DNA from: Escherichia coli
Lineage (GTDB): Bacteria; Pseudomonadota; Gammaproteobacteria; Enterobacterales; Enterobacteriaceae
Strand: one strand, 5' to 3'
DNA: 64,000 nucleotides
NCBI RefSeq assembly: GCF_048403405.1
Contig: NZ_CP183129.1
In this document: positions 55,887 through 57,414 of the stretch, in pieces
How the letters are laid out: each line of letters starts with the position of its first letter
How positions within the stretch are numbered: position 1 is the first letter of the stretch
Program-made: the position numbers and the translations under genes
Notes under the pieces: model-generated
The model's database searches: none
Seen by the model: the letters and a program-made list of their open reading frames with translations, nothing else
What the model was told of the DNA's origin: nothing

Positions 55887-57414
55887 GAGAATGTTCCTCC
55901 GGATGTTGTTAAACCAGCCGGTGTGGTCATGAAAACAGCGCGCCACCTTCACCGGCATAACAACCGGGGAGAAACGTAAAAAATAATCGGGAATGTGGCT
56001 GTCCGGAGATAAACGGGGGGATTGCGATGGCAGAGCCGTAGCGGAATCCCGGGGGGGGGGGTGTTGCGAAAAGATGCTTCCGCACGCACGCGCGATAAAG
56101 AGGGGATAGTTTTCGTGAGGACAGGGAGAGAAGCAGGCGTTCTGATAATTGCAGAGTTGTTTTCGGAGGTGGTTACAGTGAGTCAGCCCGTTCCTGGCGA
56201 GCAGGAGACTGATATCACCGATGGGATAAGGTTGTCTGATTGGTATTATAAATATAAGAAGTCATCAGAGAGTAACGTAAAGGATTTGCCAGAATAACCT
56301 AAGAGAGTAAATCTCTCCGGTAACAGAGCGCTGTGAAGCATTCTGTATCAGAGTGCAGATACATGAACGCTGATGCGTAAAATCAGCAGTGACACGCCAG
56401 CTCCCCCTATGCCCATTCCTGTATAAGACATGAACTGAGTGTATTAATGCTTCTGCCCTGAGACTGAGCCGGTGAGTGAGGGGCTGAGAAATCCCTCTTG
56501 ACACAGCTCTAACCAGAAATACTTCCCCGGTTGTTGCGGTGCGTCCGGATCCCCGATAACGGAACACTAAGGCTGTATTGCGGGACACCGGGTAAGTAGC
56601 AGCCCGTAAGGCGTTCTGTCAACGCCAGAAAAAATGATTTCCCACACGCGTTATAGACTCACTCCTGTGGACCTGGAAGCCCGTAACTCTGCGGTTGCCC
56701 ACTGACTGACGGAACTGACCGCAAATTTTACGAGTGCGTGCTGGGCTTCAGTCTGGTCACCTGAGCGTTCGGTAACGGAGGCGCGGGCGGTAATAGGCTG
56801 ATTTTCAGGTATTACCGGCTTACAGCGTGTGGTTGATATTGAGGGGCTGTGAGTTTCGCGTATTTGTCAGAAACCCAGACGAGTTTTCCTGTATGGGACG
56901 AAATAAGGCAGCGGCAATACCTGGAAAAATTTAATATGGTATGAAGGAGAACCTGTCGGTTACGCTTAATATACCCGGTACACTGTCAGCTCAGGGGATA
57001 CATGAACCGTTATCTCACCAGCTACACAGTATATACACACTGACGCTGACAGTAGTCAGCAGGACCACAATAATCAGTGCCAGCAGTATGGTAACGATAC
57101 GGTCTGTATTCCGGTAATAGCCGAAGGGGTCGACAGAACCACAATACGGGCAACACACTGTATTATGAGTAATCGCGTTTCCACAGTCCCTGCACTTCTT
57201 TTTGCGTATCACCATCACTCCCTCCTCACAGCCTTACCCGTAACCGGTTTTTTACATTAAAAAAACAACGCTGAAAATTCAACCGTCAGTCCGGAGACGA
57301 CCGTTCGGGTTATCACAGAGTGCCTGAGACAGTGTCCTGCCGGAGGTCACTTCAGGGACTCTGCGCATTTTTTACGACGTGGCTATTCCGTATGAACCAT
57401 ACGGAGATTTAACC

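What the first reader, a model, noticed from the sequence alone, without database searches (positions are those of the whole stretch)
56051..56061. G11 homopolymer tract in the region upstream of the alpA-like gene
A run of about 11 consecutive G sits 100-170 bp upstream of the alpA-like regulator, between divergently oriented island genes. Tracts this long are rare in E. coli and prone to slipped-strand length variation, so it could modulate promoter spacing, or be an assembly artifact.
Basis: seen in the sequence. Interest (0 to 1): 0.4.

Follow-up and report, generated by a model that had tools for sequence, protein, structure and literature searches.

The report
Unstable G-run upstream of island alpA gene
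A run of 11 G's in a non-coding stretch of an E. coli genomic island is real and its length differs (10 to 16) between otherwise near-identical strains, but nothing shows that it controls a gene, so it is most likely a harmless mutational hot spot.

Summary
The G11 tract at 56051-56061 is real and is the only homopolymer longer than 9 in the window (about 0.015 expected). It is not an assembly artefact. About 130 independent complete E. coli genomes carry a pure tract of G10-G16 at this locus. Strains whose surrounding 25 kb is almost identical to the window differ in tract length. The tract arose from an interrupted motif (GGGTGGTTG), which is retained in paralogous islands and in many orthologous copies. 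Intermediate alleles G6, G7, G2AG6 and G9 exist. No expansion was found in two paralogous island types, each present in roughly 800-1,100 genomes, so the origin looks single. The tract lies 165 bp upstream of an AlpA-family gene, inside a conserved non-coding module of about 370 bp. No sigma-70-like promoter straddles it. The only ORF covering it is spurious. If transcribed with alpA, it is a predicted unpaired linker whose length does not change the fold. Best reading: a slipped-strand hot spot that is tolerated, probably neutral (about 0.7). A real expression switch is not excluded (about 0.1-0.15). Interest is low.

The parts
56051..56061 (+). G11 homopolymer (C11 on the alpA strand); the hypermutable tract
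   Evidence: Read directly. Alleles G6-G16 occur at the same site in other genomes.
55680..55886 (-). alpA-like helix-turn-helix regulator gene (68 aa)
   Evidence: Pfam PF05930 Phage_AlpA, 25.2 bits above the cut-off of 21. Annotated as helix-turn-helix/AlpA family regulator WP_000235214.1 in identical genomes. The same protein occurs in genomes with G7 to G16.
55887..56258 (-). Conserved non-coding module upstream of alpA (putative leader/regulatory region) that contains the tract
   Evidence: The alignment of 7 orthologs and paralogs has 84% mean column identity with long invariant blocks. Homology ends near 56258. No Rfam family matches.
55893..55975 (-). Predicted hairpin that pairs the alpA Shine-Dalgarno GGAGGAAC with GUUUCUCC
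   Evidence: RNAalifold consensus, with the pairs invariant or GC/GU in all 7 sequences. Single-sequence fold of 55880-55985 gives -34.5 kcal/mol, z = -2.39. Pairing probability of the SD is 1.0 in every tract-length variant.
56022..56297 (+). Mechanical 91-aa ORF that reads through the tract; judged not a gene
   Evidence: The frame is broken by stops and by 1-, 2- and 6-nt indels in paralogs. No Pfam hit. Homologs occur only in Escherichia/Shigella, are 48-134 aa long and are all 'hypothetical'.
56600..56770 (+). Remnant of an Hha/YmoA-like gene (approximate coordinates)
   Evidence: The gene is annotated as intact in paralog L009. The window copy has an in-frame stop and lacks 122 bp of L009; the join is at window 56757-56775.
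57015..57218 (-). Small zinc-ribbon/membrane ORF, the next annotated gene upstream on the alpA strand
   Evidence: ORF list. Annotated as hypothetical WP_001297900.1 in the identical genome.
54984..55586 (-). 200-aa hypothetical gene immediately downstream of alpA (probable co-transcript)
   Evidence: Annotated as WP_000813432.1. No Pfam family.

Best explanation
The tract is a slipped-strand-mispairing hot spot and, most likely, a tolerated and selectively near-neutral by-product of mutation. It lies in a non-coding spacer of a CP4-44-type genomic island. An ancestral interrupted G-rich motif (CC-GGGTGGTTG-TTGCG) lost its interrupting T's by substitution, giving G6TTG, then G7TG and G9TG. Once the run was pure and about 9-10 long, replication slippage made its length drift, and G10 to G16 are seen today. 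The drift is shown. The order of the steps is inferred from the alleles that exist. If the region is transcribed with alpA, the tract is an unpaired C-run linker between two helices, so length changes do not disturb the conserved elements around it. That would explain why it is tolerated.
For: 1. Length polymorphism with identical flanks. G7, G10, G11, G12, G13 and G14 were read directly in fetched loci, and G16. Counts in 5,426 complete genomes, inferred from match spans: G10 about 33-43, G11 17, G12 10, G13 19, G14 28, G15 10, G16 at least 3.
2. Genomes whose 25-kb island segment scores within about 40 bits of a perfect match carry G10 to G16 (read). The tract is therefore the fastest-changing site in that segment.
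3. A graded allele series exists at the same site: G3TG2TTG, G6TTG, G7TTG, G7TG, G2AG6TG and G9TG. Paralogs keep G3TG2TTG or G6TTG.
4. No expanded tract was found in two paralog types, each present in roughly 800-1,100 genomes. This points to a single origin rather than recurrent selection.
5. No promoter hexamer pair straddles the tract.
6. The ORF across the tract is not conserved.
7. The predicted minus-strand RNA fold has the same energy (-88.1 kcal/mol) for the ancestral motif, G7, G11, G14 and G16. The tract is unpaired (pairing probability 0.05-0.15).
8. Tract lengths show no excess of one reading frame: n mod 3 = 1, 2, 0 give roughly 60, 45 and 20 genomes.
9. Established knowledge: indel rates in E. 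coli rise exponentially with homopolymer length, and 8-bp G:C runs are already outliers in K-12 (PMC8510543).
Against: The tract lies inside a strongly conserved non-coding module directly upstream of a regulator gene, so an effect on expression cannot be excluded. The tract has stayed long (10 or more) in about 130 genomes rather than collapsing, which might hint at maintenance. No transcription start sites, read-level data or expression data were available. Genome counts are not phylogenetically independent. Some assemblies may carry homopolymer errors of one base.
Confidence: 0.7

Rival explanations
1. The tract is a functional contingency (phase or rheostat) element for the alpA-like regulator. 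Length changes would alter the spacing or phasing between an upstream element (for example the perfect TATAAT at 56250-56245 on the minus strand, or a regulator binding site) and downstream elements. Alternatively, they would change a C-rich unpaired stretch of the 5' leader, for instance its loading of Rho. Either way, AlpA level and island behaviour would be tuned.
For: The tract lies in a conserved module of about 370 bp upstream of alpA that looks like a leader, and the module ends in a hairpin sequestering the SD. The long tract is retained in about 130 genomes. A G-run+TTGCGA direct repeat with 42-bp spacing includes the tract. Upstream-of-promoter homopolymer rheostats are known in other bacteria (H. 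pylori sabA, PMC4081817, listed).
Against: No promoter pair straddles the tract. Paralogous islands, and most orthologous copies, work with a short interrupted motif. The predicted fold is insensitive to length. Four near-identical isolate pairs each share one length, which argues against very fast switching. The two-copy repeat may be a chance match.
Confidence: 0.13
2. The tract is a translational frameshift switch for the plus-strand ORF 56022-56297. With G11 the ORF is open from TTG 56022 through the tract.
For: The ORF is in frame across G11 in the window. PGAP annotates the equivalent ORF as a hypothetical protein in some genomes.
Against: The reading frame is destroyed by stops and non-triplet indels in paralogs. 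There is no Pfam hit. Homologs have erratic lengths and occur only in Escherichia/Shigella. The identical genome has no annotation for this ORF. Tract lengths show no preference for the 'on' frame. The ORF is unrelated to the small island regulator RgdR.
Confidence: 0.03
3. The run, or its length, is a sequencing or assembly artefact.
For: Long G runs are error-prone on nanopore, PacBio and Illumina platforms. Some differences of one base between assemblies could be errors.
Against: The long tract is present in about 130 independent complete assemblies, with a 7-nt range of lengths. The SMS-3-5 reference genome has G14. Short-read metagenome contigs contain G9 and G10. The near-identical isolate pairs P649/P666, KN13-4/KN12-1, GN03551/GN03139 and MSB1_7A/3B each agree.
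Confidence: 0.02
4. The G-run acts on plus-strand transcription towards the Hha-like gene, through a non-template G-run, R-loop or G-quadruplex-type block, or a promoter-upstream effect.
For: In paralogs an Hha/YmoA gene lies about 540 bp downstream on the plus strand.
Against: In this lineage the Hha-like gene is a degraded remnant, so there is nothing left to regulate. A single G11 run is a poor quadruplex former (general knowledge). No plus-strand promoter was found near the tract.
Confidence: 0.03

Closest known systems
Simple-sequence contingency loci with poly-G/poly-C tracts in or near promoters (Neisseria porA/opc, Bordetella fim genes; H. pylori sabA poly-T rheostat, PMC4081817)
   Same: It is a mononucleotide run of 10 or more next to a regulator gene. 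Its length changes by slippage and is polymorphic among closely related strains.
   Different: No promoter element flanks the tract. No phenotype or expression change is known. The tract arose once in one lineage and is absent from paralogs. E. coli phase variation classically uses DNA inversion or Dam methylation rather than repeats (own knowledge).
Neutral polymorphic mononucleotide repeats in E. coli non-coding DNA, and homopolymer indel hot spots seen in mutation-accumulation studies (PMC8510543)
   Same: The location is non-coding. Instability depends on length. The series of alleles grows from an interrupted motif. No function can be detected.
   Different: At G10-G16 it is much longer than typical E. 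coli runs. 8-bp G:C runs are already outliers in K-12, and the window's other G/C runs stop at 7.
Reversible homopolymer frameshift in an ExPEC capsule gene (kpsC 7A/6A, PMC13410964)
   Same: It is slipped-strand variation at a homopolymer in an extraintestinal E. coli.
   Different: The kpsC tract lies in a real coding sequence and has a demonstrated capsule phenotype. The tract here is non-coding (the ORF across it is spurious).
AlpA-family regulators of CP4-type cryptic prophages, P4-like elements and phage-inducible islands
   Same: The neighbouring gene is an AlpA-family helix-turn-helix protein in a CP4-44-type island.
   Different: No G-tract control of an alpA gene was found in the papers searched. 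This protein is only a weak Pfam member and differs from K-12 AlpA (the K-12 comparison is from own knowledge, not tested).

Membership tests
Simple-sequence-repeat contingency (phase-variable) locus | Homopolymer or short repeat long enough to slip (about 8 units or more) | tested here: met
   G11 in the window; G10-G16 in relatives.
Simple-sequence-repeat contingency (phase-variable) locus | Repeat number varies among closely related strains | tested here: met
   Islands that are near-identical over 25 kb carry G10-G16.
Simple-sequence-repeat contingency (phase-variable) locus | Repeat number is heterogeneous within one culture (high switching rate) | not testable with these tools
   No raw reads were available. 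Four near-identical isolate pairs share one length each, which argues against extremely fast switching.
Simple-sequence-repeat contingency (phase-variable) locus | Repeat lies in the 5' part of a genuine coding sequence, or between or next to promoter elements | tested here: not met
   The ORF across the tract is not conserved. No -35/-10 pair straddles the tract. True transcription starts are unknown.
Simple-sequence-repeat contingency (phase-variable) locus | Repeat length changes expression or phenotype | not testable with these tools
   This needs reporter fusions or transcript measurements.
Simple-sequence-repeat contingency (phase-variable) locus | Signs of selection for the repeat (recurrent origin, or maintenance across homologous loci) | tested here: not met
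   Two paralog types, each in roughly 800-1,100 genomes, show no expansion beyond G6 or G3TG2. Most orthologous copies have short or interrupted alleles.
Sequencing or assembly artefact | Feature is not reproducible across independent assemblies and platforms | tested here: not met
   The tract is reproduced in about 130 complete genomes and in short-read metagenome contigs.
AlpA family (Pfam PF05930), for the adjacent gene | Score above the Pfam gathering threshold | tested here: met
   25.2 bits against a cut-off of 21, E = 1.5e-5, covering positions 4-51 of the 51-position profile.
Known RNA family (Rfam) for the conserved upstream module | Covariance-model match | tested here: not met
   No match at E of 1 or below in 54000-59000, either strand.

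The most novel reading that the evidence does not exclude
The tract could be a genuine simple-sequence contingency switch in E. coli, a species in which such switches are thought to be very rare. In one lineage of extraintestinal strains its length would tune the level of an AlpA-family island regulator. That in turn would tune island excision or island gene expression, by acting as a variable spacer or Rho-loading stretch in a conserved leader that also hides the ribosome-binding site.
Probability: 0.1. Interest if true: 0.6.

Novelty: new member of a known kind. Interest (0 to 1): 0.2.

Why it matters
If the tract is neutral, as seems most likely, it has three practical uses. It is a fast-evolving marker for fine-scale typing within this E. 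coli lineage. It is a site where assemblies and variant callers will disagree. It is also a clear natural example of how an interrupted G-rich motif turns into an unstable homopolymer. If it did tune the AlpA-like regulator, it would be a rare repeat-based switch in E. coli, linked to the behaviour of a genomic island.

Tried and rejected
1. Coding switch. The 91-aa ORF through the tract was compared across paralogs. Its frame is broken there, it has no Pfam hit and its homologs are erratic. Rejected.
2. Identity with the small island regulator RgdR (ECs1581; PMC3378721). I located ECs_1581 in the Sakai genome and compared the proteins. There is no similarity, and RgdR lies in a different element type.
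3. Known RNA families around the tract: none.
4. Promoter scans, strict and relaxed: nothing straddles the tract.
5. Hairpin next to the tract (56018-56026 with 56042-56050). It is not conserved in the other haplotype (checked by hand on the alignment). Treated as chance.
6. Search for the module in other species. Two invariant words of 26 and 22 nt gave nothing in the one-genome-per-species collection except a 512-bp low-coverage contig in a Terrisporobacter assembly, probably E. coli contamination.
7. Independent expansions in paralogous islands, tested with synthetic G12 queries: none.
8. Literature searches for a homopolymer tract linked to alpA or to this island type: nothing relevant.

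Full report
**Observation.** Window 56051-56061 is exactly G11, flanked by GGAATCCC on the left and TGTTGCGAAAAG on the right. It is the only homopolymer longer than 9 nt in the 64 kb. The other G/C runs stop at 7. About 0.015 G or C runs of 11 or more are expected from base or dinucleotide composition.

**Context.** The window is E. coli chromosome. It runs from colanic-acid genes through an O1 O-antigen cluster, the his operon and dacD-sbmC-yeeA-tmaR into a CP4-44-type island. The island carries cbtA/cbeA, yeeS/T, a dynamin-like cluster and IS150.
- An 801-bp segment around the tract (55650-56450) is 100% identical to strains CUVET16-394 and MS 16-3.
- On the minus strand lie a 200-aa hypothetical gene (54984-55586) and an AlpA-family helix-turn-helix gene (55680-55886; Pfam PF05930 above threshold).
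- The tract starts 165 bp upstream of the alpA ATG.
- The next annotated gene to the right (57015-57218) is also on the minus strand. The first plus-strand gene is an inovirus-Gp2/YagK-YfjJ family gene at 57415-57984.
- In paralogous islands the 1.1-kb gap holds a plus-strand Hha/YmoA-like gene. Here that gene is only a remnant, with an in-frame stop and 122 bp of the paralog missing.

**Is the tract variable?** Yes.
- Fetched orthologous loci with identical flanks carry G7, G10, G11, G12, G13 and G14, and G16.
- I used 187-193-nt queries with G8, G11 or G14 and read the tract length from the span of full-length matches. Among 5,426 complete genomes this gives roughly G10 33-43, G11 17, G12 10, G13 19, G14 28, G15 10 and G16 at least 3.
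- A further 453 genomes fall in the G7/G8/G9/G2AG6 class. Strains S88 and 55989 are G2AG6TG.
- A 25-kb query (39001-64000) shows that genomes scoring within about 40 bits of a perfect match carry G10 (E17), G12, G13, G14 (SMS-3-5), G15 (MS6198) and G16 (MS 69-1) (read). They differ from the window by only a few substitutions and, in some, an IS insertion. The tract is therefore by far the fastest-changing site in the segment.
- It is not an artefact. The length range is 7 nt. Short-read metagenome contigs show G9 and G10. Four near-identical isolate pairs each agree on length.

**Origin.** Twenty-seven metagenome contigs with the same flanks, together with the alignment of paralogs, give a graded allele series at the same site:
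- GGGTGGTTG (also the state in paralogs);
- GGGGGGTTG;
- G7TTG;
- G7TG;
- GGAG6TG;
- G9TG;
- G10-G16+TG;
- rare G10/G11 alleles lacking the TG.

The long run therefore grew from an interrupted G-rich motif by T-to-G changes followed by slippage. The order of these steps is inferred. Synthetic G12 versions of two paralog types found nothing closer than the natural short alleles. Each type is present in roughly 800-1,100 genomes. Expansion therefore seems to have happened once. The module itself was not found outside E. coli in a one-genome-per-species collection, apart from one probable contaminant contig.

**What could it act on?**
1. *Coding sequence.* The only ORF across the tract (56022-56297, plus strand; in frame through G11) is annotated as 'hypothetical' in some genomes.
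   - Paralogs break its frame with stops and with 1-, 2- and 6-nt indels.
   - It has no Pfam match.
   - Its database relatives are Escherichia/Shigella calls of 48-134 aa.
   - It is unrelated to RgdR.
   - It is not a gene.
2. *Promoter spacing.* Neither the standard scan nor a relaxed one finds hexamers straddling the tract.
3. *Leader RNA.* The roughly 370 bp upstream of alpA (55887-56258) are strikingly conserved among paralogs that are 82-91% identical over a 190-nt query around the tract. The conservation includes long invariant blocks and ends at a perfect TATAAT on the minus strand (56250-56245).
   - The last 83 nt form a predicted hairpin that pairs the alpA Shine-Dalgarno with an upstream GUUUCUCC (-34.5 kcal/mol, z = -2.39). 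The pairs are invariant, so covariation can neither support nor refute the hairpin.
   - The tract lies in the most variable patch of this module.
   - In folds of the minus-strand RNA it is an unpaired linker. The minimum free energy is -88.1 kcal/mol whether the site is the ancestral motif, G7, G11, G14 or G16.
   - No Rfam family matches.

**Interpretation.** The best-supported reading is a slipped-strand hot spot that is tolerated because it sits in a structurally indifferent spacer (confidence about 0.7). This fits established knowledge that E. coli indel rates rise exponentially with run length, and that 8-bp G:C runs are already outliers in K-12 (PMC8510543). Tract lengths show no reading-frame preference.

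A regulatory role for alpA remains possible (about 0.13), as a variable spacer or as a Rho-loading C-run in the leader. The tract lies in a conserved module and has stayed long in about 130 genomes. No test here supports that role, and transcription starts are unknown. The coding-switch, artefact and Hha-directed readings are each 0.03 or less.

**Comparison with known systems.** The tract resembles the poly-G/C contingency tracts of Neisseria, Bordetella and Helicobacter in its mutational behaviour. It fails the positional test (promoter or coding sequence) and the recurrence test, and its phenotype is untested. It should therefore not be filed as a phase-variation locus. It is closest to the neutral polymorphic mononucleotide repeats of E. 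coli, although unusually long. Literature searches found no description of this tract, or of homopolymer control of an alpA gene.

**Verdict.** The artefact reading is rejected. The promoter-spacing idea is unsupported. The tract is a new member of a known kind, of low interest (0.2).

Noticed in passing
window 55893-55975 (minus strand): A predicted 83-nt hairpin pairs the alpA Shine-Dalgarno (GGAGGAAC) with an upstream GUUUCUCC. It is invariant or GC/GU in all 7 paralogs. The fold of 55880-55985 gives -34.5 kcal/mol, z = -2.39. This suggests translational control of the AlpA-like regulator.
   Followed up: partly
window 55887-56258: About 370 bp of non-coding DNA upstream of alpA is more conserved among island paralogs than the surrounding sequence. 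Homology ends abruptly at a perfect TATAAT (56250-56245, minus strand). It may be a long leader or regulatory module. There is no Rfam match.
   Followed up: partly
window 55990-56050: A patch of about 55 bp just left of the tract exists in two haplotypes that differ at about 11 positions. The flanks on both sides are nearly identical between the same sequences, for example the window against B4103-1. This mosaic suggests recombination or a specificity determinant.
   Followed up: no
window about 56600-56770 (plus strand): Degraded Hha/YmoA-like gene. It has an in-frame stop and lacks 122 bp present in the paralog in strain B4103-1, where the gene is annotated as intact.
   Followed up: partly
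window 56015-56027 and 56057-56069: Direct repeat of a G-run followed by (A/G)TTGCGA, with 42-bp spacing (about four helical turns). The second copy includes the end of the tract. It could be a chance match or a protein-binding motif.
   Followed up: no
window 53072-54441: An IS150 copy (orfA/orfB with programmed frameshift) is inserted next to the 200-aa gene downstream of alpA. In the identical genome it is flanked by fragments of an AAA ATPase gene.
   Followed up: no
window about 39900-49900 (L001 4278-4651 and 13389-14260): In the CUVET16-394 annotation of this island region, the toxin gene cbtA and a GTPase-family gene are marked frameshifted. This suggests general decay of the island.
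   Followed up: no
L043 (NZ_JAHZMO010000129.1, 512 bp): A low-coverage (0.8x) contig in a Terrisporobacter petrolearius assembly contains the E. coli island 22-mer. It is almost certainly E. coli contamination of that assembly.
   Followed up: no
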